In this document: one piece after another, positions 3,345-62,825 of the stretch | Position numbering within the stretch: position 1 is the first letter of the stretch | How the letters are laid out: every line of letters begins with the position of its first letter | Origin: an uncultured Planctomycetia bacterium | GTDB taxonomy: Bacteria; Omnitrophota; Gorgyraeia; JABMRG01; JAFGKX01 | Assembly (NCBI GenBank): GCA_964570585.1 | Contig: CAZMYR010000001.1 | Location: 17,441-81,440 of the forward strand | DNA: 64,000 nt | Direction: 5' to 3' | The notes under the pieces: model-generated | Database searches by the model: none | Told to the model about the DNA's origin: nothing | The model's input: only the letters and a program-made list of their open reading frames with translations | Program-made: the position numbers and the translations under genes

Positions 3345-3392
3345 ATGCAGACGGATTCCCTGCTTTAAATATTCTTGCTTCATCTTCTCCAC

Positions 3393-8702: not shown

Positions 8703-8893
8703 TTTCAAATCTCCTCTTTTTTTTGTCATAGTCTTTCATAAATCTTTGCTTTGTTATGCTTAAGTTATAAAAGTCTTTAATTACCCGAATACAGCGCAAC
8801 CCTTTTGCCTCGGTTTGTCCCCCTCGAAAATTTTTTATGGAGACAGTAAAATCGAGGCCAAAGGGTTGTTTAAACGCTATAACTCTATAACCC

Positions 8894-11800: not shown

Positions 11801-14800
11801 GCCCCAACCATAGGTATTACAGTTTACCCAATTAAGCAGGTCTGCTCTTGAGCCGGTGGTGATATCAGTCTGAGACATTTCAGTAACAACAGCGTCAGGA
11901 GTTGTGTCAACCATGATAGCTACTATGGCACCTTTTTCTCCTGCCTCGATATACTCTTCTGTAACCCGGGTGTTCCTGAGCTGCTTGGCAGGAGCAAAGG
12001 CATCACGGTTGATATTGCTTAATTTACCGGTTATAACATTAACATAGTTTTCACCGCGTGTATGATCCAAGGCTAATTTTGCACCTGGAGCTAATTGGAC
12101 ATACTGCATACTCCAGCCTGCCATCTCCCATTTTTCGGTGGCGTTTATCAGGCTTTCAGCCATAGTCTTGAATCTTATTGCTATTTTGCGCTCATCCTCC
12201 TCGGTTATCTTTGCATCAGGTGTTATTTTAGCCAAAACTACTGCTGGCATCTGTGAATTTCTCTCAAACATCATCTGTTTTCTATAGGTCTCGGCCATGC
12301 TTAGCTCATTATCGTCATTTACCCCTTGGAATTCCCTGATATCCGCCAAGGCAGGAGCGATAACACTTAATGTACCATTTTGGGCAAGAATAGCAGAAAT
12401 CTGAACAAAATTTATCTCTCCTTTCTTGTTGGCAGAACTATCATAAGGATTTAGAAAATCACCCGCACTATCTTTAGGGAATTTCTCCAAAGTACTGAAT
12501 ATATCTTTTGCTTTTCCCATAAAGAGTCCTACATCGTCGCAGCCAAAATCTAATTTTGCACCTTTTTTGCTGCCTATTACCCTTCCATTTTTATCTACCA
12601 TGATAGGAGCGTAGGGGTCCTTTTTATATGTAGTAGCTATGCTAAAGGAGACATCGCCTAAGGCTTGATGTATCATAGTAAGCCAAAGAACAGTCTCCGG
12701 ATTCAATACTGCCATATCTCCCCATACAACAAGTAGATCTCCATCAAATTGCGCTAAATTCTCCTTTGCAGAAAGTACTGCGTGGCCGTCACCTTTTATA
12801 TAGTCCTCAAAGACATATTCTGCATCAAACCCGCCTTTATCTAAAGCCTCTTTTATCTCTGCAAAATTTCCGCCTTTACCTTCTTTTCCTAATGCATCCC
12901 TCCATTGTTCGGAACGGACTACAACAACGGGTTTTTTATCTAAAAACGCTGTCTGTCTTAATACGTGATAGATTATAGGTTCGCCGCATACCTTCTGGAG
13001 AACCTTTGACTTCTTGTCTGTCATCCTGGTACCCAGGCCTGCAGCAGCAACAATAACCCGTACCGGCCTTTGAAGCTTAAATTCTGCTGAATCTTTTATA
13101 CCCAGGATATCAAGAGTTAACCTTCTAATAGTATCTTTATTCTTTTCATAATTAGCCCCATCCCTTATAAGGTCTCTTAAGACGCTCTTGGCTAAAAAGT
13201 TCCTTAATTCTGTTAGCTCTTTTTTAAATTCAGCTATAGAAGAAAAACCGCCTTTCGTGTCCTTGACTTTGTAGTGTAGCGCCAAGAACCTACTCTGTAT
13301 AAGCTTGTTTAAATCTGTGGCATTAACAAATTTCATCTTTTGTATAATATTTTCAATCTCGCCATAACCTGGCCGGGTGAAGAGGCCATAAATTAAGTAT
13401 TCCAGCTCACCGATGGGGTCAACTCGCATAACAGAATAATCTATTAAAAAAGGTGAACCATCGGGTTTTATTAAGATGTTTCTGGTGTTTATATTCCAAG
13501 TCCCGGGAACATCTTTGCCCTGCAGGTATGAAGCTACATCGGTTATATTTATAACTGTATCTATGAGCTCGATACCGCGATAACCCATAGCCCCTTCATT
13601 AATGCCCTCAAATTTCTCGCCAAAAGGTACACCTTCGGCATAAGGATAGACTATCGCCTTTGCATCTTCTAAGCCGGCCCATTTATCTTTACCGGCGCTC
13701 ATAACCACTGGCCTATATATATGGGGATAATCCTCCGGGACTCTTCGTAAAAATTCATATATCTCATCTGCTTGCCTTTCCATACCCTCTGTTTCTAACT
13801 TCTTAATAACAAAAAGCTGCCCACTTTGTTCATCTTCTGCTAACAAGAGTTTCTCGCTTCCGTGTATCGGCCCGATGATAATAAATGTTTTTTCACCCAT
13901 CTTGTTACACAGGGTCAGTTTTTCAACAACTCCCTCTTCTCCAGCCGAGCTGGCTTTGACCATAGTATCGGCGGCTGAAGCTACCTCGGATCTTTCAATT
14001 CTCTGTCTAACGCCCTTAAACTCATCCGTAGTCCTGGCAACATCCATAACATCTGGCCAGAAAAGAAGCGTTTCCCCGTCGCTTTGCATCTGTTTTCTTA
14101 CATCTTTTTCGACCTTTTCAATAAAGGCATCTTTCGTGCTATCATTTATTCCGCTCATATACCTTCTTTCATTTGGTTCTGGCATCTCATCAAATACAAT
14201 CTCTGTACCGTCTGCTAAGGTTATAGAATAACGCGTTTCCTGTTTCACCGCATCCCCATGCTTCGCTGGCATTTTGGTGGTTTTGATATCACTTCGTTTT
14301 ACGGTATGGGGAGGTCTGCTATCGTCTATTTCAAAGTAAACCACTCTGTCTTCTTTCTGCTTCACATCACCAACTAAATCCTCTATTATTATTACCGGCT
14401 TTAGCCTGATAATAGCTCCTGTTTGGTCTACTTCCATACGATATGTTGTCTCTACCGGATGTTTGGTGATTTTAGTGCCTTCTACTTTTTCCACCCCTGT
14501 TCTTGGTGGTAAAAATTCTACAACGAATTCGCCCGCAAGTATATTAAGGCTATCATGCAATTCTTTATTGCCATGTTTTAATGCCGCAGCGGCCTTCTTG
14601 GTAAGGGTGTTTATCCTTTCTATTGTCCTTGCCTGAAGGTTGTGTAGGGCCTCTTTGCGTTTGTCTGGAATCTCATAAATCTTCCCTTCTTCTATCATCT
14701 CTTTTCCAAGATACCTCATACGTTCTTTATAATCTACGCGGTCATCATATTTTTCCATAGCTTCGAATCTGTCCAGGGTTCTTCTTACCACCCTGTTTAA

Positions 14801-17800
14801 GATATGCCAATCTGCCATAGCGCTATGTTCCTTACGCACCTGTAGGGGTATATTGGGCCTTGTTGCGGTCTTTAATCTATGGTGTCCACCTACTGTCCTG
14901 GTCCATGTCATAAGCCGGCCTGTCACGACCCTTACCAGATAGTTAAAGTATGGCTCTTCTCTCCTGTACAGCTGGCCTATTGTTGGTATAGGAAAAACTG
15001 AATCATCAAAACTGAACATATTCATACACATAAAAATCCTTTTGGATAAAGTGGTATCTTCTTGCGGGTCAAGAAGTGCGGTAACAGCCTCTGGCCTTGC
15101 AAGATAGAGTACCTTAAGGGCCGCCTCCTGCAACATATCAGAATCTATGGCACCCCTTTCCAGAAATGAATCTATCTGAGCATCGGCTGATTTATCTCTA
15201 TCGTGATTAAAGTGGGTTGTTGCGCACTGATTCCTTAAAAAGCGAATCTCATCCACATTGCCTGTAAATACCGAGCCTGCAAAACCCCTCTTATCCTTAT
15301 CTACAATCATCGCTCCTGTATTTGGGTTTACTGCAAAGGCACCAAGCGCCCTATCTAATACGCCAAGATAATCCACTGTATATCTATCATATTCATATGT
15401 ATGATATTCTGGAAATTTTTTCTCTTTATCTTCTGGCTTATTATCAACATGGGCAAGTATCGCATCCTCTGATACTACAACCCGTTCAGGAAGTCCTGTA
15501 TCGAGTAAGGCATTAAATCGCGTAGTATTATCAACATTCTTTTGAACTATCTGTCCTGCCTTCTCTGGTATTAAGGCGGTAGTCTCCTTTTCCTCCGGGC
15601 TACTATATCCATAGTATATCCTTATAACATCTGTTACCTTCTTGGAAAGAGTTGGATGAGTTCTTAGATATGCTACAAAATCCGATTCAGACTTTATTTT
15701 TTGCTTAGCAGCAGTGTGTAATTCCTTGAAGAATTTTTTTCTCATATCCTTAACCTCTTGCCTTCTCTTTTCTAAAATATCATCAAGCACTTTCCTTTTG
15801 GCAACCCTCATAACCGGGAGAGAATCATCATCCACTGAAGCCATTCTGAGACCCATTGCAAGCATAATGGTAAAGTTTCTTATCCCAGATATATTAGAGG
15901 CAAACTGGTCAGCCAAAATTCTTTCCAGCTGTGGCCTAATAGAGTCTACATCCTTAAACTGGCGTAGAATATCTTCGCGCAACTTGTCCTGGCGCCAAAG
16001 ATCTGTATAACGTTCAGTAAGCGTATCGATTACCTTTTTTACGATGTTGTCTCTTACATCCCAATCGACATAGGTTATATTGAAACCTCTTTTTTTAAAA
16101 GTCTCAATTACCATCCTATCTAATTCCCCCCATTTCATAGCGCGTATATCCTTTGGTGTCTTTTTACCCCCAAAAAGGGTTTTATTTACCCATTCAACCT
16201 CTTCGTCTTTCATCGGCTCTGCCTTGGCTCCAGGACCTTTAGTGAGTACATTCGAGGTAACAGCTATAGGGATATTGCGGTGACCAAACTCATCTAGAAC
16301 TTCAGTTTGACGCTCCAATACTCTATATAATGCACTGGGTCTTCTATATGAAGGTATCCATAAGGGGCCCAGGGTTATATCTCGCGCGCGCGCCATAGTA
16401 GCTCCTTTTTTAATTAAACGCCTCGATTCATCTAAAGCTGTTTCTGCAAATTTCTTCATATATTTAGGGAGGTCTTCTGCAGCCAGCTCATAAAATACCC
16501 CTTTACCTCCTGCTACATCTGAAACAATAAGATAATCTTCAAGTGCGCTGGTAAGATTAAGATAGTCCGGGGCATAGCCATTTATATAGCCGTGATATCT
16601 TAATATGTCTTCATCATATATATAGTAATTGACACCCTCTGGCGTTTCTATTCTCTTGATATTAACCTTTTTGCCGGTCTTATAACCTATCACCCTTAAA
16701 AAGTAGAGAAAGTCCTTGCCAAAATCGGTTGGCTCATCTTCATCATTAAAAATCATCTTAATATCATCCTGAATAGCAGCAGGCCTTATGCCTAAAACTA
16801 CCTGCAGAAGAGGTGCATTGGCCTTTTCGAGTAAGAATCTCTTTATGGCTTTTCTGTTTTCGGGAACATTATCGGCAAAGGCCTTATTACTCACCTTAGT
16901 TTTATCATCTCTCAGCAGTCCGCTGGCAACATTAGATATTCTTCTTACATTATCGGTATATTCTATATCATCAAAAAGATAAGCCAATTTATCCCTGAGG
17001 GCATCAGCTGCCTCCCTAAGCCTGCTTCGTCCCGTTATAGTGGTTGGGTCGGTCTCTTCAATTGTCTTTATAGGCACAAAAGATCTATATCTGTCTATAA
17101 TAACCGGTATGTAAGGGAGGTTGAATGTAAAACCGGAGATGTTTCTTTCAATCTGAGCGCCCACATAGATAACAGGCCTTCCATGTTCATCTACATCTTT
17201 CTCCTCCTTTAAATTTATAAATGCGTGGGGTTCCTTCTTTGTAACCTGCTCAGTAATCTCTTCTATAGTAAGCTCTTTATCATAATTATCAGGCAGCTCA
17301 AACGTCTCCATAAGCCCATCTATGGAAAAGAGTATAGAACCGGTGTGGAAATAAGGAAAGTGAGTTCTTAATTGGTCTTTGTCTAATTCAGATACGTGCC
17401 TTTTAAATTCTTCTGTCATATCATTCTTATCAGCAATGACCATCTTACTTTCGCCTGTCTCCTTATCAATCGCTGTTAAAAGAAGCCCTCCTCTTTCATT
17501 TCTGTTTTCAGCAACGCCTACTAAAGCTACTGGGACCGGTCTACCATCCTCTCTCGCTTCCTCTATCTGCTCAGCCAAAAGACCCTTTAATTCTGCTGAT
17601 AACCTTCCGGCAGTATTATTCATATGGGCGTTCATCACAAAGTTTATATTGTCTCTTTTTAACTTTGCTAAAATACCGTTTAATATAAGCCACCTGACAA
17701 AATCCCAGTGCCCGGGAGGATTGGTTACTAATCTGCCATCTGAAAGCCTGAGCGGTTTTCCAATATGTTGTCTTTGGATAGCGATACCTCTGCGTAACGC

Positions 17801-18772
17801 CTCTAATTCTTCTTCGGAAATCTTTTCTTGCCGATAATCCTCCTCCTTTTGTTCAAGGTAGTGGATTAATATAGTTTCTGAGGGTGTAAATCTTATCTGT
17901 ATCCCCTGTTCAAATATCTCTATATCGTTGCGGTTATAGCCATAATGGTCATTCCTCTCCAAAATCTCTTTTATCATCTCTCCAGTTTCACCGCTCCCCA
18001 TGAAATATACTTTAACCCGGGCACTCTTATCTTTGGTTGCTTCTCTCAGTTCCTCTTGTGAACGTTTCGCTTCTGCTATCTTAAGCTGCACAAACCCATA
18101 AAGCTGGTCTGGATTATCCGAGTTTAATTCAGGTATAGCAAATACAAATCCGGCCCTCATCTCGCCTTTTGTCCGTGTGCTTAATCCTCCTGCAGAAGAC
18201 CCAAAAGACGCAGGTATTCTACTGCCACGTTCTCTGAGTTCATGCAGTCGCCTTTCTTCCATATTCATAATATCTATAGGGCCTCTCCTACCGGTGGGAT
18301 CTGTGGTTGGCGGCGATTTAAGTTCCATCGGCCTTCTTATATTAACATCTTCTACGTAGTGGGCCTTCTGGGCAAAGTTTCGCATCGCCTCAAATGTCGG
18401 TAGCTCAGTCTCAAAGAAATGAAACTCAAGTAAGTCCCGGGCCTGCTTAAGTATGCGCTGCGCTTGTTCCTTCTTACCCTGTTTCAGCGCCTGCTCAGCC
18501 AAATCAAGCTGGGTGTTGTATATATTGTATAACTTCCCGTGTAAATGCTCAGGAATAACAACATCTGGTTTTATTGGACGGTTACCGCTTGAACTACTCT
18601 TCAGAGCTGCTACTATTGGCGGCCTACCTTCAAAAACCCCGACTGAAGAAGGCCTCAGATGGTCCTGAAGAATCACTGTAGTATCTACAGGAGCTGCCCA
18701 TAAGGTATTGGTTATAGTAAATGTTATCGCTATACTCAAGTTTAAAACCTTCGCTAATATCTCTTTAATCAT
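8894..18772 (-). CDS. Giant secreted multidomain protein (3292 aa) containing an APH/anomeric-sugar-kinase-like module followed by a sugar-1-phosphate nucleotidyltransferase module, plus at least 7 copies of the K-S-S-S-A-G linker motif.
   Basis: ORF track entry. ATG at 18770-18772 with GAGGAGGA 5 nt upstream. N-terminus MIKEILAKVLNLSIAITFTITNTLWAAPV is signal-peptide-like. Stop TAA at 8894-8896. Confidence 0.85.
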   Translation of the reverse strand: MIKEILAKVLNLSIAITFTITNTLWAAPVDTTVILQDHLRPSSVGVFEGRPPIVAALKSSSSGNRPIKPDVVIPEHLHGKLYNIYNTQLDLAEQALKQGKKEQAQRILKQARDLLEFHFFETELPTFEAMRNFAQKAHYVEDVNIRRPMELKSPPTTDPTGRRGPIDIMNMEERRLHELRERGSRIPASFGSSAGGLSTRTKGEMRAGFVFAIPELNSDNPDQLYGFVQLKIAEAKRSQEELREATKDKSARVKVYFMGSGETGEMIKEILERNDHYGYNRNDIEIFEQGIQIRFTPSETILIHYLEQKEEDYRQEKISEEELEALRRGIAIQRQHIGKPLRLSDGRLVTNPPGHWDFVRWLILNGILAKLKRDNINFVMNAHMNNTAGRLSAELKGLLAEQIEEAREDGRPVPVALVGVAENRNERGGLLLTAIDKETGESKMVIADKNDMTEEFKRHVSELDKDQLRTHFPYFHTGSILFSIDGLMETFELPDNYDKELTIEEITEQVTKKEPHAFINLKEEKDVDEHGRPVIYVGAQIERNISGFTFNLPYIPVIIDRYRSFVPIKTIEETDPTTITGRSRLREAADALRDKLAYLFDDIEYTDNVRRISNVASGLLRDDKTKVSNKAFADNVPENRKAIKRFLLEKANAPLLQVVLGIRPAAIQDDIKMIFNDEDEPTDFGKDFLYFLRVIGYKTGKKVNIKRIETPEGVNYYIYDEDILRYHGYINGYAPDYLNLTSALEDYLIVSDVAGGKGVFYELAAEDLPKYMKKFAETALDESRRLIKKGATMARARDITLGPLWIPSYRRPSALYRVLERQTEVLDEFGHRNIPIAVTSNVLTKGPGAKAEPMKDEEVEWVNKTLFGGKKTPKDIRAMKWGELDRMVIETFKKRGFNITYVDWDVRDNIVKKVIDTLTERYTDLWRQDKLREDILRQFKDVDSIRPQLERILADQFASNISGIRNFTIMLAMGLRMASVDDDSLPVMRVAKRKVLDDILEKRRQEVKDMRKKFFKELHTAAKQKIKSESDFVAYLRTHPTLSKKVTDVIRIYYGYSSPEEKETTALIPEKAGQIVQKNVDNTTRFNALLDTGLPERVVVSEDAILAHVDNKPEDKEKKFPEYHTYEYDRYTVDYLGVLDRALGAFAVNPNTGAMIVDKDKRGFAGSVFTGNVDEIRFLRNQCATTHFNHDRDKSADAQIDSFLERGAIDSDMLQEAALKVLYLARPEAVTALLDPQEDTTLSKRIFMCMNMFSFDDSVFPIPTIGQLYRREEPYFNYLVRVVTGRLMTWTRTVGGHHRLKTATRPNIPLQVRKEHSAMADWHILNRVVRRTLDRFEAMEKYDDRVDYKERMRYLGKEMIEEGKIYEIPDKRKEALHNLQARTIERINTLTKKAAAALKHGNKELHDSLNILAGEFVVEFLPPRTGVEKVEGTKITKHPVETTYRMEVDQTGAIIRLKPVIIIEDLVGDVKQKEDRVVYFEIDDSRPPHTVKRSDIKTTKMPAKHGDAVKQETRYSITLADGTEIVFDEMPEPNERRYMSGINDSTKDAFIEKVEKDVRKQMQSDGETLLFWPDVMDVARTTDEFKGVRQRIERSEVASAADTMVKASSAGEEGVVEKLTLCNKMGEKTFIIIGPIHGSEKLLLAEDEQSGQLFVIKKLETEGMERQADEIYEFLRRVPEDYPHIYRPVVMSAGKDKWAGLEDAKAIVYPYAEGVPFGEKFEGINEGAMGYRGIELIDTVINITDVASYLQGKDVPGTWNINTRNILIKPDGSPFLIDYSVMRVDPIGELEYLIYGLFTRPGYGEIENIIQKMKFVNATDLNKLIQSRFLALHYKVKDTKGGFSSIAEFKKELTELRNFLAKSVLRDLIRDGANYEKNKDTIRRLTLDILGIKDSAEFKLQRPVRVIVAAAGLGTRMTDKKSKVLQKVCGEPIIYHVLRQTAFLDKKPVVVVRSEQWRDALGKEGKGGNFAEIKEALDKGGFDAEYVFEDYIKGDGHAVLSAKENLAQFDGDLLVVWGDMAVLNPETVLWLTMIHQALGDVSFSIATTYKKDPYAPIMVDKNGRVIGSKKGAKLDFGCDDVGLFMGKAKDIFSTLEKFPKDSAGDFLNPYDSSANKKGEINFVQISAILAQNGTLSVIAPALADIREFQGVNDDNELSMAETYRKQMMFERNSQMPAVVLAKITPDAKITEEDERKIAIRFKTMAESLINATEKWEMAGWSMQYVQLAPGAKLALDHTRGENYVNVITGKLSNINRDAFAPAKQLRNTRVTEEYIEAGEKGAIVAIMVDTTPDAVVTEMSQTDITTGSRADLLNWVNCNTYGWGEHFDNLAFYNLKGIEIINGEEKKVCYIQFWTAGQGVNCADHDHSELTKDTTFGEIHFCMRNGTGKGGMVYYNESGKPAYLPLPRGHAHGPFWGFDPETGKPVTTAGGVVAYGQHRWEGGGSFIELGKPNRYDLWAVFELVPEVAIIPVAGKSSSAGKIVRIGDVGIKVEDITRENLANNGLVFAHIKENFPFDNFEKLSREARSVGDISLNERMIQSMFEHTPFEITGCFRMPGIDNAYISFLKAELSGFADIQILMRIKGRRSLEAYIAHLTKEQMERIKDKPALAHNIAAQNVLERNIRLMAQIQESTKSSSAGAKEQKSVTEIFSSLLKTLHAINYIPEIPSAGDYTFRNMGANTRWSSVKIKQGKLIFLKSGIDTSAVIFGPGSLYMETDKPGFKIGHKWWEYKGDNPLVDVRIDKKGSIYAIVKQEVIAQLTEDWKSDYAAKYLPPSEDLPLTLVSELDTAAISKLLPKPISTSKSSSSGVILAGEEVKVIEPEILVRLALDIPMNDVRASRLLLLYNVLIGFKKQVSKLGYDQQFIKDAKLGQKGLLLLQCDDFNITLLSLKETEGAYILLYQVRDLQNMLEGFMPVAALVQKIGDKSAEAGIAILTGKQIVELQKQNLVAGPAPRKELLKRLPDAEKILVRRAGAKYTKAEKAYAKKVQAFAMDDMMVGREKSSDKPNKSSSAGNRALAELNRGLLNAENILLDALVKETTQVPGEVELLNDSLLTESLQKLTQLSAKATRLKVETTLTSAEEELIQLKIATQRSVIEFARVCAPIARIESEGTIIVDANAIPDIKQRMAVISMLKDHRLRDALEYALSFKDKGQVTKKTQIVLLADVNRQTLNRKKTILISDKQQLADVKLFKIGVKKDDILLPMAELIAVARGLLSLNEDNFNQLFPAIKKMYQQYTQNTIEAIVEQALREGTWSVFELIITTLPGVEKLSQEEIERLQRQAWAALIAA
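12380..13080 (-). other. Sugar-1-phosphate nucleotidyltransferase (NTP_transferase fold) module inside the 3292-aa protein
   Basis: VIVAAAGLGTRM verified at 13021-13074. This is the G-x-G-T-R glycine-rich loop of GlmU, RmlA and MurU-type nucleotidyltransferases. Downstream LLVVWGDMAVL fits the family. Boundaries are approximate. Confidence 0.55.
13380..13700 (-). other. Protein-kinase-like / aminoglycoside-phosphotransferase-fold sugar kinase module inside the 3292-aa protein
   Basis: Translation PGTWNINTRNILIKPDGSPFLIDYSVMRVDPIGELEY (verified at 13451-13510). It resembles the HGDxxxxNxxxxxxxxxxxIDxE catalytic/Mg loop of APH, choline-kinase and AmgK-type kinases. Boundaries are approximate. 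Confidence 0.4.
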
Positions 18773-18950: not shown

Positions 18951-19161
18951 TCTGACCTGTGCCCCGAAGGGGTATGCGCGATTTTCAGTGGTACCTGATT
19001 TTGAAATTCCATACCATAAATTATAAATATACTTTTTTAAAACTTATTTAAATTATACCAAAACTTCTTCATATTGTCAATTATTTTCTTACTAAAATCT
19101 CAGATTTTTCGGTAGATAAAGAGAAAATTTTATTCAGGCCTACCAAAAGACGAAATATATA

Positions 19162-22100
19162 CTATGCGGCGGCATTTATGAATTGGACAATTCTAAAATC
19201 AGCATCGGGCTTCAGATATCTTCTGTCCGTCCTATCTGCATCTTGCACCTTGTCGCCTTCAGTGGCTTTTGGTTCAGGTTCCTGTCTGGTGGTATCACTG
19301 GATAAATCCTTTCTACCTAATAATCTGGCTAACCCGCCACTTACGCTGAGTTGACCAGCTGCTCCTTCTCCGGAAATATCTGGAATTCCAAATTGGGCCA
19401 GATTTTTATTACTGAACTCGGGACGGCCTGTAACATCAATAACTCTGCCAATACCTTCTGGAAAAGAAGGTATTGTTGTCTTCTCATCCGGAAGCTCTAC
19501 TTCAAGAGTTACCAGCCCCTCAAGTTTTCCATAGTATCGGTCTGTTTCTGCCGTTAATCCGTCTTTAAGGGGAACGCAATATCTATCCTTAACAATAACT
19601 CTTTCGTTCGCAAGAGGCCCAAGTCTTTCATAAGTTTCAGCTGATATCGGAATTTCTATTTCTCTTCTTGAAATTCCTTCTCCTATCTTAATGGTAAAGA
19701 AATATTTAGTGCCTTTTTGCCTAATTCTTACTTCCGTATCGCCTTCTATGAATAGATAACGTTGAATAATCCTTGCCGGTGTATAAGAATTCAAAAATTC
19801 CGGAAAATCAAAAAGTAGAAACTTCCTTTCTATCTCCAGGCCTTCTTCTTTTGCCTTAAGCTGAGTTGCAATCTTTTCTAAAATCTCCTTAAGCAAAGCC
19901 TGCCTTAGTCCGACATCATCTATAAGTCCGGTTAGAATATCTGTTATTCTCAAATATAAATCTCTTATATGTTCATTTTTCCAGACGTCTTCTTTAGGCG
20001 GTACCAAAACTGTTTCTTCCCCACTCAACTCTCCGTCAGGCCTCTTTCTTTCAACGATTAACTTAGAGCCTGCTCGTAAGTTTCCCTCATTATCAAGACC
20101 AAGCACGGCATAGACCACAGGCGCATTCATAGGAACGCTTTCCGGATCCTTAACTGCACAATATCCTTCTCTGCCCATAGAACCATCCCTATCGACCAGG
20201 ATAGGCTCGGTATTTATCTGCTTAAAACCAGTAATCTCACCGACATACCTCATAAATTGTGCAGCCGGCCTCATATTTATCTCGGTGTTACCATCAGGTA
20301 AAACCTTTGTTCCAACGTTAATGGGCTTAATCTCCACATGGGTCGTCATTCTGTTGGTTGCATTCTTTACCTTTTCCAAAAGCCCTGCCTGAGAAATCTG
20401 CGCATATTCCTCTAAATTCAAATCAAATAATCTTAAGATTGAATTAACCTTAATATAAAATTGATTGCTGCTAAAATTATCTCCTGGAAGCGGCTGGTCC
20501 AAATTCATATCCTTGCCTTTGCTTAAGACATGGACAAATGTTCCGCCTTTTTCTACTTCACCCTTAATGCCAGGCTTTAGCCTTTTTCCTTTGAAAATAA
20601 TACTCAGTTTATCTCCTTCTAACTTTAGCTCTATACCTTTTGGGAGCTTGGATGACCTTATAATTTTCCCTTTTCTTGCGATAACCCTAAATTCTTTATC
20701 CTCTCCTTGGAAACAAGCAGGGTCAGTAGACCGAAAACTACCGAATATCTTATCGTCCTTGTTTATACTATAAACGGTGTTCTTCTCTATCAGAAGAGTC
20801 AAGATATCGACATCTTTCTTTCTCATAAGATAAGCGGCCTTGGCCGGATCCAGCATACCACCTACATCATCGCCATTTGCTATATGAAGTACTTTAGCGC
20901 CTCTCTGGGCCAACTCGAATAATCTCCTGCTTAAGACCAGCTTGGCAATGATATCGAAATGGCCAACCGGCTTACCGGTATACCCGCCGTCGTCATTTCT
21001 GAATATATCTCCCATATCGCCATTATCGGATAACCATTGTTCTACATTTGCATCAGCATCTTTTCCGTGAGGCAGGTTATATTTTTTACTATCTAAAGGG
21101 GCACCTGAAGCTCTTATGTCTTTATCTGTCGGATTAACCCTGGGTATCTCCCCCTGGGCATATAAGTATAAATCATTCGGAGAATAAATCCCGTATCCGG
21201 CTACCCTTTTCCCAAGATAACCGATATTATTACCACTGCCCATAATCGCCAAGGGTATATATCCCCGGCGAGCTTTTTTAACCAGGTATTTTAAATACAT
21301 CATCTTTACTTCAACGCTGCTAAATAGCCTTCCTGCTATCTTCCATATCGGGGCAAGGAGCTTCAACTTCTGTGATTCTGGTATCTTTACCTTATACCCA
21401 TAGAACCTGCCGGAAGTGCCACCGCCCGGAATTACTTCAGCAATCTCTTCGTTCTCCACCATTTCCATCCCTTCATCATCAAGTTCCTGTATATTCATTC
21501 CGCTTTCTGAAACCGCATCTTCAAAACTCCTGACCTTACTTTTTGGCGGGGCAATCTCTGACTCAGGAAAGCTGCTCTTTTCGACACTAAGCTTACCTGT
21601 TTTATATTGTCTTTGTAATCCTAAAAATTCCTCAAAATCTACAGAAGCAGAAGTATCAGGGTCATCTTCATTAAGAGGAGGAAAATACTTCTTTATTATC
21701 TCTAAAGCCTCTTGAGGGTCTTTCTTTTTTGTCAACTCAAAGATAGTGTGCGAATCGTATTTTTTTAGCCTGGGCTCATATATCCTGACCATCGGGTCGC
21801 GTAACAGGTACTTAATAAATGGGCAAGAATAACCGTTATCAATCAACAATCTTCCAAAAGACGTCTCTTCTATTGGAATATCAAAGATTGAATGCATTTC
21901 GCTAACTGCCTCTAATGGTCCAGAACTCAGGTGAGCTACGTTCTTCTGTCCATTAAGCTGTCTTTTGTCTGATGGGTCTATACCAAGAGGAAGTTTTCCC
22001 AAAACAGCATCCCGTCTAATGCTGCCGGCTATATTATTACCTCTGGGATTATTATCATCACCTAATAACCCTATCCTGCTCTCCTGCCAGGTAGCGCTCT

Positions 22101-24864
22101 TATTATTTGCATTCCTGATTATAATCGCAATCGTCTTTGTCCCTGAATTCTCTTTAAATAGTCTAAATAGGCTTGGCACATAGCCGTTCATTACCAAAGT
22201 AGGCCGGCCATTGTTTATCCTTGGGTCTTTTACAGGAAAGATATTTCTTGCATGCCCGACTTTATTTAGGCCAAAACATAATCCGTTTCTAAACCATGCT
22301 ATACTCTCTCCGTCGTCTCCCAAAAAAGCTTTACTAAGAACTAACTCCTTATCTTTCTTCCTTAGGCGAATCCAGTCTCCTTCTACGGCTATCTCATCGA
22401 TGGAGAATCGTCTCTTAAGCTCTTCAAAAGATATATCCGGCCTTGACACATTCCAAAGTTCAGTAATATCTTCCTCCGATAAACCTTTATTAAGAAGTTC
22501 GGCTGCAGGCATAACCATATCCTCGCTGAAAGGCTCATCAAAGAAGAACTCAAAATCTGGCGTATTATAAAGCTTTCCTATATTATACATAACAGTCGGC
22601 GGAAATTCCCATGAGATATATCCTTGGTAAGCTTCCTGGTATAAAACAGATATCTTCTCAGGATATTTTTTAAAATAAGCCCCATCAAAAACTCTCATCC
22701 CAACTATTTCATATCCAAAATATTGCACCCTTCTTAAAATATCTTCCACCGTAGCATGGTTTGATGTAAATGGCGGTTTCAATAATAATACCGACTCTTT
22801 GGCAGGTTTGCTTACAGATGGTATAAGCGCGCCAACAGAAAGTTCATCAGTGCCATCTTTTTTTGAGGAGGCAACTGTATCAGTCTCGCCCATAACCTTC
22901 TCAAGAAGTTCTCTTGATAATACCGATTCTTCCCCAGCCAGCTTTTCAGGGGAAGCCTCTGGTAATTGAATATAAGCCATCCTGCTGGTTTGAAAGACCA
23001 TATCCAGGGCAGCCATATCCTGGGCCCTCTGTCTCTCAATATCGCCGGCACCCTTATTGTAATTGTAGGGCCTAACCTGGCTATATACATATACATTCTT
23101 ACCTTCTACATACTTTATGTTGAAGTCTTCAAAATACTCTGCGCAGTGAATGCATAATGGAGTACTGCTGGATATATCTATTAGCCTTTCATACACAATG
23201 TCCTTTTTCTCTTCTTCACTCATCCTTTGGTTAGAAATTCTTCTGGTCTTGATCTGGCCGGTATCGATATTTCGAAATCTTACCAGAACGCCGCCATCCT
23301 CCAAATCAACCCCTGCCAAAAGCTCTACGCAAGGTATGCCTTCATCATAGGATATTATCCTGGCAATCGAATGAGCCATCTTAGCGCCTCTTTCGGCACA
23401 TTTTGATGGGCACATATTTCTTGGCCTATAAGGAATTTTGCTCATCCAGTCCGTCTTATGCCTCCGGCAATAGGGCTGACCGATGGCATTAGAAATTATA
23501 GAGCAAGGGATTACATTGATAGCTATATCGCTAAGCTCTTCTTTTCTAAAACCCCTCTCTATCAATAAACCTTTATACAGCTGTTTGCACTCTTGCAATT
23601 TTTCTTCCGCCAATGCTGGAATCTTTGATTCATCTTCTCCCATCTCCCTAAGAGCATCTTTAATGGCCTCTTTAGACTCTTCTGGGGTAAACAGATTAAA
23701 ATGATTAAGGAATTGGAATCCGCTGCTTCCATCGACTGCATAATACCGCCTGCCTGCAACCTGGTCTTTTTCCACCATTATCTCAATCGAGCCTACTGGA
23801 TTATACGGACAGGTCGTGCAACCTCGATTGGCATTGGCAAGCTTTAATAATTGCTGAAGAGCAGGCATCTCCTCAGTCGCCTTTGAATCACTCCTGTAAT
23901 CTACAAGAGAAATATTGGTATATAGCGGTATGTATTTCATTCCGTAGGGCAGTGTCTCTCTGAGCCTGGCATCAAAACTTCTCTCAAATCCCTCCCTAAC
24001 AAAAACTATTTTGTAATATATATCTCCATTCTCTCTCAAAAGTACCAGTTTGCCATTAAATCCTAAACAATTCTTTGGCATAAAGGTATGAATCTTGTAT
24101 TTTGCATCGCCGGTTACAAATCTACAAAGCTGTTCAATCAGCTCTCCAACACTATCAGTAGATATCAGCGCTTCTATCTCTTGCCTGACCTCATCCAGGT
24201 ATTCTGCTTTTTTAAGTAAGACAGCCCCTCTTCTTGTTTTATAATCTTGTGAGGGAGTAAATTCAACAACATCTACTCCTTCTAAACTGGTCAAACTACG
24301 TAAAGAGGCCATCAGAGATTCTGCTTTTTCCTCTGGTAGTTTTTCGTCCTCGGGTAAGTCTAAACTGATACCATAAACTTCTCTTAGTTTATTTACATCT
24401 GGATTTCCTCTGTTTTTAAGTAAGAATTGCCAGATAGTAGAGGGGTTGTATTTCTGCCATGACTGTCTTATTGCGGGTATGTTACAAAAAAGAGAGCACC
24501 ATACCCTGATATCCTCTTGAGAGGTTGCCCTGGAGGCTAACATTCCCATAACATTCAAGGCTTCGGATGTAATTTCAACAGTTGGCTGTTTTATCTTACC
24601 AAAGGTCAATTCAGGATTGGCTTTCAAAAATGAGCTGTGAACCTCAAATATTCTGCCCACCCTATGATAAGCATCAGCTGTACTCAGTCTCCTTAATTCA
24701 CGATTAATAGCGCTGCAATGCTTCTGAAAGATATCGTCGCCTAAATGACCAGGAAGCTGTATACCCGTGGCGCATGGGCGTAGATAGCCCTCTCCGGGAT
24801 AGACCGGTATGGCCAGTTGGTTAATAGCAAATGTTACAATTAGAATAACTTGTACGATTCTCAT
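19162..24864 (-). CDS. Large secreted multidomain protein (1900 aa) containing a UDP-sugar pyrophosphorylase (UDPGP family)-like module
   Basis: ORF track entry. ATG at 24862-24864, stop TAG at 19162-19164. N-terminus MRIVQVILIVTFAINQLAIPV is signal-like. The region around 20300-21300 reads LHIANGDDVGGMLD and PVGHFDIIAKL, which resemble the NVDNLGA and GHGD motifs of eukaryotic-type UTP-sugar-1-P uridylyltransferases. This is a family-level similarity from memory only. Confidence 0.8.
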   Translation of the reverse strand: MRIVQVILIVTFAINQLAIPVYPGEGYLRPCATGIQLPGHLGDDIFQKHCSAINRELRRLSTADAYHRVGRIFEVHSSFLKANPELTFGKIKQPTVEITSEALNVMGMLASRATSQEDIRVWCSLFCNIPAIRQSWQKYNPSTIWQFLLKNRGNPDVNKLREVYGISLDLPEDEKLPEEKAESLMASLRSLTSLEGVDVVEFTPSQDYKTRRGAVLLKKAEYLDEVRQEIEALISTDSVGELIEQLCRFVTGDAKYKIHTFMPKNCLGFNGKLVLLRENGDIYYKIVFVREGFERSFDARLRETLPYGMKYIPLYTNISLVDYRSDSKATEEMPALQQLLKLANANRGCTTCPYNPVGSIEIMVEKDQVAGRRYYAVDGSSGFQFLNHFNLFTPEESKEAIKDALREMGEDESKIPALAEEKLQECKQLYKGLLIERGFRKEELSDIAINVIPCSIISNAIGQPYCRRHKTDWMSKIPYRPRNMCPSKCAERGAKMAHSIARIISYDEGIPCVELLAGVDLEDGGVLVRFRNIDTGQIKTRRISNQRMSEEEKKDIVYERLIDISSSTPLCIHCAEYFEDFNIKYVEGKNVYVYSQVRPYNYNKGAGDIERQRAQDMAALDMVFQTSRMAYIQLPEASPEKLAGEESVLSRELLEKVMGETDTVASSKKDGTDELSVGALIPSVSKPAKESVLLLKPPFTSNHATVEDILRRVQYFGYEIVGMRVFDGAYFKKYPEKISVLYQEAYQGYISWEFPPTVMYNIGKLYNTPDFEFFFDEPFSEDMVMPAAELLNKGLSEEDITELWNVSRPDISFEELKRRFSIDEIAVEGDWIRLRKKDKELVLSKAFLGDDGESIAWFRNGLCFGLNKVGHARNIFPVKDPRINNGRPTLVMNGYVPSLFRLFKENSGTKTIAIIIRNANNKSATWQESRIGLLGDDNNPRGNNIAGSIRRDAVLGKLPLGIDPSDKRQLNGQKNVAHLSSGPLEAVSEMHSIFDIPIEETSFGRLLIDNGYSCPFIKYLLRDPMVRIYEPRLKKYDSHTIFELTKKKDPQEALEIIKKYFPPLNEDDPDTSASVDFEEFLGLQRQYKTGKLSVEKSSFPESEIAPPKSKVRSFEDAVSESGMNIQELDDEGMEMVENEEIAEVIPGGGTSGRFYGYKVKIPESQKLKLLAPIWKIAGRLFSSVEVKMMYLKYLVKKARRGYIPLAIMGSGNNIGYLGKRVAGYGIYSPNDLYLYAQGEIPRVNPTDKDIRASGAPLDSKKYNLPHGKDADANVEQWLSDNGDMGDIFRNDDGGYTGKPVGHFDIIAKLVLSRRLFELAQRGAKVLHIANGDDVGGMLDPAKAAYLMRKKDVDILTLLIEKNTVYSINKDDKIFGSFRSTDPACFQGEDKEFRVIARKGKIIRSSKLPKGIELKLEGDKLSIIFKGKRLKPGIKGEVEKGGTFVHVLSKGKDMNLDQPLPGDNFSSNQFYIKVNSILRLFDLNLEEYAQISQAGLLEKVKNATNRMTTHVEIKPINVGTKVLPDGNTEINMRPAAQFMRYVGEITGFKQINTEPILVDRDGSMGREGYCAVKDPESVPMNAPVVYAVLGLDNEGNLRAGSKLIVERKRPDGELSGEETVLVPPKEDVWKNEHIRDLYLRITDILTGLIDDVGLRQALLKEILEKIATQLKAKEEGLEIERKFLLFDFPEFLNSYTPARIIQRYLFIEGDTEVRIRQKGTKYFFTIKIGEGISRREIEIPISAETYERLGPLANERVIVKDRYCVPLKDGLTAETDRYYGKLEGLVTLEVELPDEKTTIPSFPEGIGRVIDVTGRPEFSNKNLAQFGIPDISGEGAAGQLSVSGGLARLLGRKDLSSDTTRQEPEPKATEGDKVQDADRTDRRYLKPDADFRIVQFINAAA

Positions 24865-58729: not shown

Positions 58730-59100
58730 AACTTCTATTATATCTCAAATGGTCCTGGAGGCCTTGACAGTCAACTACCCCACGCCTAAAGGTGGAGGGC
58801 TTGTGAGAATAAGCCTGGTTGACTAGGGGGCATTGAAAGATGCAGAAGTTAAGAGAAAGAAGGATAACCAACACACCTACGGTTATTACGCACGACCGTA
58901 GCAACTGTGGTCTGTCATTAAACAGCCCTGAGGGTAGGGACAGTGTGGCAGGCTTAAAAACCTCTCTTAACAGCCCCGATGCGTCTCTAACTGCGAGTCC
59001 CGCCCTTTTACAAAAGGGCGGGACGAGAGGACACGCAGGACAGAACCCGAGGGTATCTGTCGTTTACCCCCACACCAAAAGTTTTGGTGTGGGGGTTTAT
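58730..59100 (+). ncRNA. Candidate omega-RNA (OMEGA guide/scaffold RNA) upstream of, and overlapping, the iscB start
   Basis: Strongly structured. Perfect 13-bp hairpins GTCCCGCCCTTTT/ACAAAAGGGCGGGAC (58997-59024) and CCCCCACACCAAAAG/TTTTGGTGTGGGGG (59067-59095). The track's 5' extension of the iscB ORF (58840-59088) translates to low-complexity, non-protein-like sequence. The extent is approximate. Confidence 0.4.
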
Positions 59101-60315: not shown

Positions 60316-60346
60316 ACCTTTTGGCAGGGGTTTGCGAGCCGGAGTT

Positions 60347-60374
60347 TTTCAATGAAGCGATTATAGGGTATAAT
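60347..60374 (+). promoter_or_regulatory. Candidate promoter of fic (TTCAAT-16-TATAAT), bracketed by 13-bp direct repeats AATGAAGCGATTA at 60351-60363 and 60385-60397
   Basis: Consensus -10 TATAAT at 60369-60374. The repeats are seen directly. Confidence 0.35.
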
Positions 60375-60407
60375 TATATCAGAAAATGAAGCGATTAGAG
60401 GTGCTAA

Positions 60408-61535: not shown

Positions 61536-61621
61536 AATATATCGCATCGTTAAATTTACTCTACGGCTGGACATAACCCGACCCGACCGTAATGGCTAGG
61601 GGGGGCATTTTTGGTCAGGTA

Positions 61622-62806: not shown

Positions 62807-62825
62807 CTTTTTGCTCCTTATGTTT

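What the first reader, a model, noticed from the sequence alone, without database searches (positions are those of the whole stretch)
20100..21300. UDPGP-like sugar-nucleotide module embedded in the 1900-aa protein
The 1900-aa protein has a UDPGP-like region (HIANGDDVGG and GHFD motifs) that would fit a UDP-sugar pyrophosphorylase. It sits within the same locus as the kinase plus nucleotidyltransferase module, consistent with a shared sugar-activation role. This is a family-level similarity from memory only.
Basis: partly seen in the sequence, partly recalled or inferred. Interest (0 to 1): 0.8.

Follow-up and report, generated by a model that had tools for sequence, protein, structure and literature searches.

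The report
Divergent UDP-sugar pyrophosphorylase domain, kinase-fused
A 1900-residue membrane-tagged bacterial protein really does contain a very divergent but apparently intact UDP-sugar pyrophosphorylase domain, sitting directly behind a nucleoside-diphosphate-kinase-like domain in a rare conserved pairing that looks built to make UTP and use it at once to activate a sugar.

Summary
The minus-strand ORF 19162-24864 (1900 aa) carries GHFD (20953-20964) and HIANGDDVGG (20857-20886).

Most phosphate- and nucleotide-contacting residues are kept, including the essential C-terminal lysine (K1572). Differences are a reshaped nucleotide loop, a roughly 75-aa beta insertion and no C-terminal domain.

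The domain is part of a module. An NDK-like domain with its catalytic histidine (aa 683-1028) lies directly upstream, as in 30 of 48 detectable relatives. A CYTH triphosphatase-like domain follows (aa 1677-1823).

The gene lies among four giant ORFs carrying other sugar-metabolism domains, as reported for Omnitrophota giant proteins; the organism itself was not identified. This is a new variant of a known enzyme family. Activity, sugar specificity, reaction direction and cellular side are all untested.

The parts
19162..24864 (-). 1900-aa ORF. Order of parts: N-terminal hydrophobic helix, 640-aa unknown region, NDK-like domain, linker, UDPGP-like domain, CYTH domain, charged tail.
   Evidence: ORF list and translation. 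Relatives at 50-61% identity over aa 41-1606.
24793..24864 (-). N-terminal hydrophobic helix (aa 1-24), a signal peptide or a signal anchor.
   Evidence: Kyte-Doolittle scan: it is the only hydrophobic segment in the protein.
22825..24744 (-). N-terminal region of unknown fold (aa 41-680) with invariant Cys-rich motifs.
   Evidence: No Pfam or PDB match, either alone or as a 3-sequence profile. Shared only with P0002 and P0004.
21781..22818 (-). NDK-like domain (aa 683-1028) with a large internal insertion. Catalytic set kept: K696, R950, N975, H978, S980, E989.
   Evidence: Profile A2 against PDB: nucleoside diphosphate kinases, best E 1e-10 (1xqi), with 108 chains listed at E<=10. Invariant columns.
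20086..21501 (-). UDPGP-like sugar-1-phosphate nucleotidyltransferase domain (aa 1122-1593). This is the finding.
21403..21429 (-). Glycine-rich nucleotide-binding loop PGGGTSGRF (aa 1146-1154). G1149 and R1153 are near-invariant, and R1153 aligns with AfUAP1 R141.
   Evidence: PMC8386105.
20953..20964 (-). GHFD motif (aa 1301-1304), equivalent to PPGHGD of UGPases. G1301 stacks on uridine; H1302 contacts the beta-phosphate and sugar OH-2.
   Evidence: residue roles from PMC3270307.
20857..20886 (-). HIANGDDVGG motif (aa 1327-1336), equivalent to the S-N-G-D-N-L-G-A strand and loop of Leishmania UGP (N219-N222). The last Asn is Asp here.
20560..20787 (-). Beta-rich insertion of about 75 aa (aa ~1360-1435), ahead of the sugar-binding loop. 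Absent from canonical UDPGP enzymes and from part of the family.
   Evidence: Alignment A1, columns ~290-380. Modelled as strands with pLDDT 79-92. HMMER gaps against 8c0b.
20539..20553 (-). Sugar-binding loop EKGGT (aa 1438-1442). K1439 is equivalent to TbUGP K256, and G1441 to G258.
20149..20151 (-). Codon of K1572, equivalent to the essential catalytic lysine (potato UGP K367, TbUGP K377, AfUAP1 K437).
   Evidence: Invariant in 21/21 sequences and 41/46. Aligned to the 'LPVKT' lysine of UGPases. Role from PMC3270307 and PMC8386105.
19396..19836 (-). CYTH / triphosphate-tunnel domain (aa 1677-1823) starting with the EIERK (ExExK) motif.
   Evidence: phmmer against PDB: 2fbl/3typ (NE1496) E 2e-17. 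Pfam CYTH E 4e-4.
17051..18109 (-). Second, more degenerate UDPGP-like domain in the adjacent 3292-aa ORF (aa 222-574). PPGHWD and the C-terminal Lys are kept, but NxDN is replaced by HMNN.
   Evidence: A1 HMM E 5e-34. Pfam UDPGP 22.2 bits. UAP hits in PDB.
12263..13060 (-). GlmU-like NTP-transferase domain in the 3292-aa ORF (aa ~1905-2170), followed by an AUDH-type cupin.
   Evidence: Pfam NTP_transf_3 E 1.5e-7 and AUDH_Cupin E 4.7e-37. GlmU chains E 4.6e-11.

Best explanation
Residues 1122-1593 of the 1900-aa protein form a highly divergent but catalytically competent member of the eukaryote-type UDPGP family of sugar-1-phosphate nucleotidyltransferases (NTP + sugar-1-P <-> NDP-sugar + PPi). 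The nucleotide is most likely UTP. The sugar is most likely a hexose-1-phosphate rather than a HexNAc-1-phosphate. The domain works as the second half of a conserved two-domain module. The NDK-like domain directly upstream (aa 683-1028, catalytic His978) would re-phosphorylate UDP to UTP at the expense of ATP. The UDPGP-like domain would then couple that UTP to a sugar-1-phosphate. Together they would form a UDP -> UTP -> UDP-sugar regeneration unit. The C-terminal CYTH domain may dispose of a polyphosphate by-product. The module is tethered by an N-terminal hydrophobic helix. It sits in a row of giant multi-enzyme proteins that carry further sugar-phosphate and sugar-nucleotide domains. Shown here: homology, fold, conservation of active-site residues, and recurrence of the domain pairing. 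Inferred: activity, nucleotide and sugar specificity, direction of the reaction, coupling between the domains, the role of CYTH, and the cellular side on which the module acts.
Against: The window's own sequence scores 16-20 bits against Pfam UDPGP, below the 22-bit gathering score. The 'PK' lysine of the nucleotide loop (AfUAP1 K148) aligns with Glu1163. A lysine five residues later (K1168) might substitute, but the alignment there is ambiguous. NxDN reads NGDD. The sugar-contact positions differ: Glu->Asp1456 and Asn->Ser1465. The C-terminal beta-helix or dimerisation domain of canonical enzymes is absent, and a 75-aa insertion sits next to the sugar loop. The N-terminal helix looks like a signal peptide or anchor. 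If the protein is exported, UTP and sugar phosphates would not be available in the usual way. CYTH co-occurs with the module in only one other relative, and there at a different position. There are no biochemical data for any family member, and the reaction is freely reversible, so its direction is unknown.
Confidence: 0.7

Rival explanations
1. The chemistry is the same but runs in the catabolic direction. The domain pyrophosphorolyses scavenged UDP-sugars (UDP-sugar + PPi -> UTP + sugar-1-P). The fused NDK-like domain passes the gamma-phosphate of UTP to ADP. The released sugar-1-phosphate enters the PGM, isomerase and aldolase domains of the neighbouring giant protein. The module would then be a harvesting device for a host-dependent bacterium.
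For: UDPGP reactions are reversible, and AfUAP1 was caught performing pyrophosphorolysis in crystals (PMC8386105). The downstream giant ORF has weak matches to PGM/PMM domain II and an MPI cupin (both below Pfam's cut-offs) and to class-II FBP aldolase (just above it), which suit catabolism as well as synthesis. Giant multi-enzyme proteins of this style are reported from Omnitrophota with reduced, host-dependent metabolism (bioRxiv 10.64898/2026.06.07.730766).
Against: Nothing in the sequence fixes the direction. No PPi-generating or PPi-dependent partner was identified. The GlmU-like transferase and the second UDPGP-like domain nearby are classically biosynthetic.
Confidence: 0.2
2. The domain is a nucleotidyltransferase of the UDPGP fold but with a different substrate pair. 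It could use another NTP, or a phosphorylated acceptor other than a common hexose-1-phosphate, such as an unusual sugar, a sugar acid or a non-sugar phosphate.
For: The nucleotide loop is remodelled to GGTSGRFYGY...PE. A 75-aa insertion abuts the sugar loop. Two sugar-contact positions differ from UGP, Asp1456 and Ser1465. The His1302 position varies H/N/S across the family, which suggests diversified acceptors. The uracil Gln is replaced in 12 of 46 relatives.
Against: In this protein the uracil-reading Gln (Q1237), G1301-H1302 and the KGG loop are all of the UGP type.
Confidence: 0.25
3. The domain is a pseudoenzyme, either a scaffold or a UDP-sugar-binding sensor inside a giant structural or regulatory protein, with no turnover.
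For: It falls below Pfam's threshold. The canonical PK lysine aligns with Glu. The paralogous copy in the next ORF has lost the NxDN motif, so degeneration does occur in this locus.
Against: The phosphate-contacting and catalytic residues are near-invariant across relatives that share only 20-30% identity. That pattern is what purifying selection on catalysis would produce. The fused NDK-like domain also keeps its whole catalytic set.
Confidence: 0.1
4. The motif resemblance is a chance match in a long ORF.
For: Single-sequence scores are marginal: 16-21 bits, covering only about 60 residues.
Confidence: 0.01

Closest known systems
Eukaryote-type UDP-N-acetylglucosamine pyrophosphorylase (UAP1/AGX1; PDB 8yp3, 4bqh, 3oc9, 1jv1, 4bma, 2yqc)
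   Different: Identity is 11-17%. His1302 stands where UAPs have the GlcNAc-reading Asn. The 'PK' lysine aligns with Glu1163. There is extra 'FYGY' in the loop, a 75-aa beta insertion and no C-terminal domain. The domain is embedded in a 1900-aa protein behind an NDK-like domain.
UDP-glucose pyrophosphorylase, UGP, Pfam PF01704 (PDB 8c0b, 7ppr, 2icx, 2oef, 3gue, 3r2w)
   Same: These are the best sequence-profile matches, E 5e-29 to 1e-18. GHFD corresponds to PPGHGD. NGDDVG corresponds to NGDNLG. EKGGT corresponds to the KGGT sugar loop. FSSNQ corresponds to FNTNN. 'AVKDPE' corresponds to the 'LPVKT' catalytic Lys. The uracil Gln is kept.
   Different: The UGP nucleotide loop (LNGGLGTxMG) is not matched. 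The sugar contacts are Asp and Ser instead of Glu and Asn. The left-handed beta-helix C-terminal domain is missing. The sequence is below Pfam's gathering score on its own.
Nucleoside diphosphate kinase (PDB 1xqi, 1xiq and many others), for the fused upstream domain
   Same: The N-terminal 'KP' strand and the C-terminal 'GxxNP...GSIRRD...NxxHxSxG...E' block are present. The catalytic His and its Asn, Ser, Glu and Arg partners are invariant.
   Different: The domain is about 345 aa instead of about 150, with a large insertion between the two halves. It is covalently joined to a UDPGP-like domain. I found no described natural fusion of this kind in the paper library.
Multi-enzyme 'metabolic cluster' giant proteins of Omnitrophota (West-Roberts et al. 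2023, bioRxiv 10.1101/2023.11.21.568195; bioRxiv 10.64898/2026.06.07.730766)
   Same: This window has very long ORFs of 10643, 3292, 1900 and >=2911 aa, each with an N-terminal signal-like helix. One has a divergent SecA_DEAD domain and many TM segments. Sugar-metabolism Pfams are scattered through them. This matches the described classes.
   Different: A term search of both papers found no mention of pyrophosphorylase, nucleoside diphosphate kinase or CYTH; the only 'UDP' hits in the 2023 paper concern a UDP-GlcNAc 4-epimerase. The taxonomic origin of this window was not established, and there are no relatives in GTDB representative genomes.
CYTH inorganic triphosphatase NE1496 of Nitrosomonas europaea (PDB 2fbl, 3typ), for the C-terminal domain
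   Same: E 2e-17 over aa 1677-1823, with the ExExK motif present. The enzyme is described as a specific inorganic triphosphatase (PMC3440374).
   Different: Here it is the C-terminal domain of a multi-enzyme protein. Its substrate in this setting is unknown.

Membership tests
UDPGP (Pfam PF01704; eukaryote-type UGP/UAP/USP) | Scores above Pfam's gathering threshold (22 bits) | tested here: not met
   The window's copy scores 16.0 bits as the whole protein, 19.7 as a 576-aa segment and 20.2 as a 500-aa segment. Nineteen of 21 aligned relatives do match PF01704, best E 1.1e-30.
UDPGP (Pfam PF01704; eukaryote-type UGP/UAP/USP) | Homology to solved family members over the whole catalytic domain | tested here: met
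   Profile A1 against PDB: UGPases E 5e-29, UAPs 1e-14 to 1e-17, USP 4e-10. No other enzyme family appears above the noise.
UDPGP (Pfam PF01704; eukaryote-type UGP/UAP/USP) | UDPGP-type fold rather than the generic short sugar-nucleotidyltransferase fold | tested here: met
UDPGP (Pfam PF01704; eukaryote-type UGP/UAP/USP) | Glycine-rich nucleotide-binding loop with a phosphate-binding Arg (UAP: GGQGTRLG) | tested here: met
   GGGTSGRF, aa 1147-1154. G1149 and R1153 are each 45/46 in the family and align to AGGQGTRLG of Ca, Af and mouse UAP.
UDPGP (Pfam PF01704; eukaryote-type UGP/UAP/USP) | Lysine of the 'PK' motif after the loop (AfUAP1 K148; end of the TbUGP NB loop) | tested here: inconclusive
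   HMMER aligns P-K of AfUAP1 with P1162-E1163 (family consensus PE..RIK). One alignment instead pairs the Lys with K1168, which is K/R in 42/46.
UDPGP (Pfam PF01704; eukaryote-type UGP/UAP/USP) | Uracil-reading Gln (TbUGP Q163, the 'NQ/QQG' motif) | tested here: met
   Q1237 in 'YAQGEIPR' aligns with FNQS/FNQG/FQQG. It is Q in 34/46 relatives.
UDPGP (Pfam PF01704; eukaryote-type UGP/UAP/USP) | P-x-G-H/N-G-D motif (uridine stacking; beta-phosphate and sugar contact) | tested here: met
   PVGHFD, aa 1299-1304, aligned to PPGHGD of Leishmania and fungal UGP. G1301 is 45/46. The position of H1302 is H/N/S across the family.
UDPGP (Pfam PF01704; eukaryote-type UGP/UAP/USP) | N-x-D-N-L-G strand and loop | tested here: met
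   N1330-G-D1332-D1333-V-G1335 aligned to Leishmania N219-G-D221-N222-L-G. The final Asn is Asp here and in 33/46 relatives.
UDPGP (Pfam PF01704; eukaryote-type UGP/UAP/USP) | Essential C-terminal catalytic Lys (potato K367, TbUGP K377, AfUAP1 K437) | tested here: met
   K1572 is invariant in alignment A1 and 41/46 in the wider set. It aligns to the Lys of 'FLPVKT'. Role.
UDPGP (Pfam PF01704; eukaryote-type UGP/UAP/USP) | C-terminal beta-helix or oligomerisation domain | tested here: not met
   The model ends with one helix after K1572 and then becomes disordered. A linker and the CYTH domain follow. TbUGP residues 408-485 form this domain (PMC3270307).
UDPGP (Pfam PF01704; eukaryote-type UGP/UAP/USP) | Catalyses NTP + sugar-1-P <-> NDP-sugar + PPi | not testable with these tools
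   Requires an enzyme assay.
Nucleoside diphosphate kinase (the fused upstream domain) | Sequence homology, plus the catalytic His and its Lys, Arg, Asn, Ser and Glu partners | tested here: met
   Profile A2 against PDB lists 108 chains at E<=10; all 60 shown are NDKs, E 1e-10 to 3e-4. H978, N975, S980, E989, R950 and K696 are invariant in 12/12 sequences. No Pfam hit for the single sequence.
CYTH / triphosphate tunnel metalloenzyme (the C-terminal domain) | ExExK motif and homology to solved CYTH proteins | tested here: met
   EIERK at aa 1677-1681. 2fbl/3typ at E 2e-17. Pfam CYTH at 20.7 bits, below its 23.2 cut-off.
Omnitrophota giant multi-enzyme proteins | Encoded in an Omnitrophota genome | tested here: inconclusive
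   No housekeeping marker lies in the window. There are no relatives in GTDB representative genomes. The only relatives are on metagenome contigs. The architecture matches published descriptions.

The most novel reading that the evidence does not exclude
The NDK-like, UDPGP-like and CYTH string is a self-contained nucleotide-sugar regeneration unit, running UDP -> UTP -> UDP-sugar with by-product removal. It would belong to a set of signal-peptide-bearing giant multi-enzyme proteins that operate outside the producer's cytoplasm. They could act on its surface, or after delivery into a host or prey cell, where they would rewire or drain the partner's sugar-nucleotide pool. That would make cytoplasm-type sugar-activation chemistry an exported effector function.
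Probability: 0.1. Interest if true: 0.85.

Novelty: new variant of a known kind. Interest (0 to 1): 0.45.

Why it matters
The finding identifies a rare, so far unnamed branch of the UDP-sugar pyrophosphorylase family. Only 48 clusters were detectable among 1.84 billion representative proteins, and where checked they are either unnamed or called hypothetical. Its hallmark is a covalent pairing with an NDK-like domain. That pairing suggests direct hand-over of freshly made UTP to sugar activation. The arrangement is of interest for enzymology and for one-pot nucleotide-sugar synthesis. It also gives a concrete, testable function to about 900 residues of 'dark' sequence in the giant multi-enzyme proteins recently described from Omnitrophota-like bacteria. 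Finally, it sharpens an open puzzle about those proteins: nucleotide-dependent, cytoplasm-type enzymes sit behind signal-peptide-like N-termini.

Tried and rejected
- **Single-sequence AlphaFold** of aa 1100-1676 gave pLDDT 36.7 and was unusable. It was replaced by the 21-sequence alignment model.
- **The word-indexed protein search** found only one 393-aa fragment, with either the single sequence or the alignment as query. All useful relatives came from the exhaustive HMMER search.
An earlier attempt failed because alignment A1 was too diverse to derive search patterns.
- **Exact look-up** of the 1900-aa protein and of the response-regulator gene found nothing on record. Only the Fic gene is on record, on a 2.4-kb JGI metagenome contig.
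- **The afdb50 fold library** was unavailable.
- **Single-sequence phmmer** of the N-terminal third of the domain against PDB found nothing. A sub-profile was needed.
- **The N-terminal 640 aa** have no PDB match even as a 3-sequence profile.
- **Gene neighbourhoods of relatives were uninformative.** The neighbour of a stand-alone NDK-UDPGP protein (L004, a 598-aa gene) is unrelated to that N-terminal region and has no Pfam hit. The neighbourhood of relative P0003 (Ppx-GppA, two thymidylate kinases, QueC, POR) gave no clear pathway clue.
- **A kinase next to the GlmU-like domain** of the 3292-aa ORF was looked for with Pfam and not found.
- **Literature searches** for a natural NDK/UDP-glucose pyrophosphorylase fusion found nothing relevant. 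A search for the Leishmania UGP residue names also found nothing.
- **Chance resemblance** was considered and rejected.
Full report
**What is at the coordinates.** The window holds four very long minus-strand reading frames in a row:
- 25175-57106 (10643 aa)
- 19162-24864 (1900 aa)
- 8894-18772 (3292 aa)
- a frame of at least 2911 aa that runs off the left end at 3-8735

The finding lies in the 1900-aa ORF. Both quoted motifs are there: GHFD at aa 1301-1304 (window 20953-20964) and HIANGDDVGG at aa 1327-1336 (window 20857-20886). About 150 residues upstream is a glycine-rich loop, PGGGTSGRF (aa 1146-1154, window 21403-21429). The family profile built later delimits the domain as aa 1122-1593, window 20086-21501.

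**Is it more than a chance resemblance?** With the single sequence the evidence is thin but points the right way.
- Pfam UDPGP (PF01704) matches aa 1298-1356 to profile positions 163-220 at 16-20 bits, under the 22-bit gathering score.
- phmmer against PDB finds Leishmania UDP-glucose pyrophosphorylase at E 3.6e-4 over the same 60 residues.

An exhaustive HMMER search of 1.84 billion representative proteins found only 48 relatives at E <= 1e-3. Most of them are embedded in proteins of 800-4100 aa. An alignment of 21 of these domains (A1) changes the picture.
- As a profile it hits solved UDP-glucose pyrophosphorylases at E 5e-29 to 1e-18, UDP-GlcNAc pyrophosphorylases at 1e-14 to 1e-17 and a UDP-sugar pyrophosphorylase at 4e-10. 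Coverage is nearly the whole profile.
- Nineteen of the 21 members individually match PF01704, best E 1.1e-30.
- With the same alignment AlphaFold2 gives a confident model (pLDDT 89.2, pTM 0.88). The single-sequence model had been useless.
- All top 50 Foldseek hits in PDB are UDPGP-family enzymes, E 4e-17 to 1e-13, probability 1.00.

**Catalytic residues.** I mapped residues through the HMMER alignments. Their roles come from the T. brucei UGP structure paper (PMC3270307) and the A. fumigatus UAP1 mechanism paper (PMC8386105).

Residues that are kept:
- the glycine loop and its arginine (G1148, G1149, R1153 = AfUAP1 R141)
- the uracil-reading glutamine (Q1237 = TbUGP Q163)
- G1301-H1302 (= TbUGP G191-H192; uridine stacking and beta-phosphate/sugar contact)
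- N1330-G-D1332 (= Leishmania N219-G-D221)
- the sugar-loop lysine and glycines (K1439, G1440, G1441 = TbUGP K256 and G258)
- the essential C-terminal lysine (K1572 = potato K367, TbUGP K377, AfUAP1 K437, whose K437M mutant is dead)

Across 46 family domains that share only 20-30% identity, G1149, R1153 and G1301 are each 45/46 and K1572 is 41/46.

Differences:
- The last Asn of NxDN is Asp.
- The two glucose contacts, Glu281 and Asn303 of TbUGP, are Asp1456 and Ser1465 here.
- The 'PK' lysine after the loop aligns with Glu1163, with K1168 as a possible shifted replacement (ambiguous).
- A beta-rich insertion of about 75 residues precedes the sugar loop.
- The C-terminal beta-helix domain of canonical enzymes is missing.

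The position of His1302 is H, N or S across the family. UAPs use Asn there and UGPs use His. I therefore infer a hexose-1-phosphate rather than a HexNAc-1-phosphate for this copy, but that is inference only.

**The domain is half of a conserved module.**
- Aligning the whole 1900-aa protein to the 48 relatives shows that conservation starts at about aa 690, not at the UDPGP-like domain.
- A profile of that upstream region (A2) hits nucleoside diphosphate kinases in PDB, best E 1e-10, and all 60 chains shown are NDKs. The catalytic histidine (H978) and its partners (K696, R950, N975, S980, E989) are invariant.
- This NDK-like domain (aa 683-1028, with a large insertion) lies directly upstream of the UDPGP-like domain in 30 of 48 relatives. 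These include stand-alone proteins of about 810-870 aa from what appear to be high-GC organisms, one of them on a soil-metagenome contig.
- Downstream, aa 1677-1823 form a CYTH domain with the ExExK motif, at E 2e-17 to NE1496. NE1496 is described as a specific inorganic triphosphatase (PMC3440374).
- CYTH accompanies the module in only one other relative, at a different position, so this link is weaker.
- The first 640 residues match nothing.

**Surroundings.**
- The next ORF (3292 aa) opens with a second, more degenerate UDPGP-like domain: aa 222-574, A1 HMM E 5e-34, Pfam 22.2 bits, NxDN lost.
- Further along the same ORF are a GlmU-like NTP-transferase and an AUDH-type cupin.
- The left-end ORF has weak matches to PGM/PMM domain II (E 5e-4) and an MPI-type cupin (E 1.3e-5), both below Pfam's cut-offs, and to class-II aldolase (E 3.1e-6, just above its cut-off).
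- The 10643-aa ORF has a divergent SecA_DEAD/helicase region and, by a simple hydropathy scan, some two dozen hydrophobic segments.
- All four ORFs begin with a single hydrophobic helix. Two of them have AXA-type cleavage sites.
- In a metagenome relative (L002, a 647-kb contig) the UDPGP-like domain and the C-terminal end of the NDK-like domain sit inside a stop-free frame of at least 7144 aa whose other parts are unrelated. The module therefore moves as a unit among giant proteins.
- This picture fits published descriptions of Omnitrophota giant proteins: SecA-like domains, signal peptides or TM helices, and 'multi-enzyme metabolic clusters' rich in sugar-metabolism Pfams.
- A term search of those papers found no mention of a pyrophosphorylase, NDK or CYTH.
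- I could not establish the organism. GTDB representative genomes hold no relative.

**How it most likely works.**
- The best-supported reading is an active sugar-1-phosphate uridylyltransferase fed by the fused NDK-like domain. The NDK-like domain would convert UDP + ATP to UTP. The UDPGP-like domain would convert UTP + sugar-1-P to UDP-sugar + PPi.
- Such a unit would recycle the UDP released by glycosyltransferases.
- Homology, fold, residue conservation and recurrence of the fusion are shown here. Activity, substrates, coupling and direction are inferred.
- The main rival keeps the chemistry but reverses it. Scavenged UDP-sugars would undergo pyrophosphorolysis, and phosphate would be transferred to ADP. 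That would suit a host-dependent organism and the aldolase, PGM and isomerase domains next door.
- A different substrate pair and a pseudoenzyme role are less likely, given the conserved residues.
- The signal-peptide-like N-terminus is unexplained if the enzymes need cytoplasmic NTPs. The 2026 preprint raises the same paradox.

**Verdict.** This is a new variant of a known enzyme family, not a new kind of system. It is a rare, very divergent UDPGP branch defined by a remodelled nucleotide loop, a beta insertion, loss of the C-terminal domain and a conserved fusion to an NDK-like domain. Here it is embedded in a giant multi-enzyme protein. Interest is moderate: the fusion is new as far as I could find and directly testable, but the underlying chemistry is ordinary.

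Noticed in passing
window 19052-19080 (minus strand): A perfect sigma-70 consensus, TTGACA-17 nt-TATAAT with an upstream TG, sits in the 389-bp gap between the 1900-aa ORF and the 3292-aa ORF. It suggests the downstream giant gene has its own promoter.
   Followed up: no
window 24793-24864, 18680-18772, ~8600-8735, 57000-57106: All four giant ORFs start with one hydrophobic helix. AXA-type signal-peptidase sites are seen in two: AWA/GNG in the 10643-aa ORF and AFA/DTD in the left-end ORF. An 'LRPxxxG'-like motif follows the helix in three: GYLRPCATG, DHLRPSSVG and LRNTPSSVG. Cytoplasm-type nucleotide-sugar enzymes behind signal-like N-termini are a topological puzzle.
   Followed up: partly
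window 22825-24744 (aa 41-680 of the 1900-aa ORF): A 640-residue region has no Pfam or PDB match even as a profile. It has invariant Cys-rich motifs (CRRHK...MCPSKCAERGAK, TPLCIHCA) that look like metal sites. It is shared only with two metagenomic giant proteins.
   Followed up: partly
window 17051-18109 (aa 222-574 of the 3292-aa ORF): This is a second UDPGP-like domain (A1 HMM E 5e-34, Pfam 22.2 bits). It keeps PPGHWD and the C-terminal Lys but has HMNN in place of NxDN, so it may be a degenerate or re-purposed paralogue.
   Followed up: partly
window 11381-13060 (aa ~1905-2463 of the 3292-aa ORF): A GlmU-like NTP-transferase is followed by an aldos-2-ulose dehydratase/isomerase-type cupin (AUDH_Cupin E 4.7e-37; PDB 4a7k E 1.3e-19). 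This is an unusual pairing inside a giant protein.
   Followed up: no
window 3-8735 (minus strand, runs off the left end): A fourth giant ORF (>=2911 aa) has weak matches to class-II fructose-bisphosphate aldolase, an MPI-type cupin and PGM/PMM domain II; the last two are below Pfam's cut-offs.
   Followed up: no
window 25175-57106 (10643-aa ORF): This ORF has a divergent SecA_DEAD plus SecA preprotein-binding plus Helicase_C region near aa 987-1728. It also has DUF218 and HEAT repeats near the C-terminus, and four clusters of hydrophobic segments (some two dozen by a simple hydropathy scan). About 90% of it has no Pfam match.
   Followed up: no
window 58840-63992: The flank holds ordinary-sized genes: an RRXRR/HNH endonuclease, a DUF4172-Fic protein, a response regulator fused to a phosphopantetheine-binding (carrier protein) domain, and a GAF histidine kinase. 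GC skew flips sign at about 57 kb, where the giant-gene block ends. The Fic gene is found identically on JGI metagenome contig Ga0315545_1046150.
   Followed up: partly
L002 1-21434 (Ga0265297_10000029, a 646.8-kb contig): The whole 21.4-kb locus is one stop-free frame (>=7144 aa). Only the UDPGP-like domain and the tail of the NDK-like domain resemble the window's proteins, so the module is shuffled between otherwise unrelated giant proteins.
   Followed up: partly
relatives P0019 and P0029/P0031/P0044 (one search set): P0019 (2797 aa) carries two UDPGP-like domains in one protein. A group of stand-alone proteins of about 810-870 aa, apparently from high-GC organisms (one traced to a soil-metagenome contig), consists of just the NDK-like plus UDPGP-like pair. 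The ones looked up are unnamed in their source records.
   Followed up: partly
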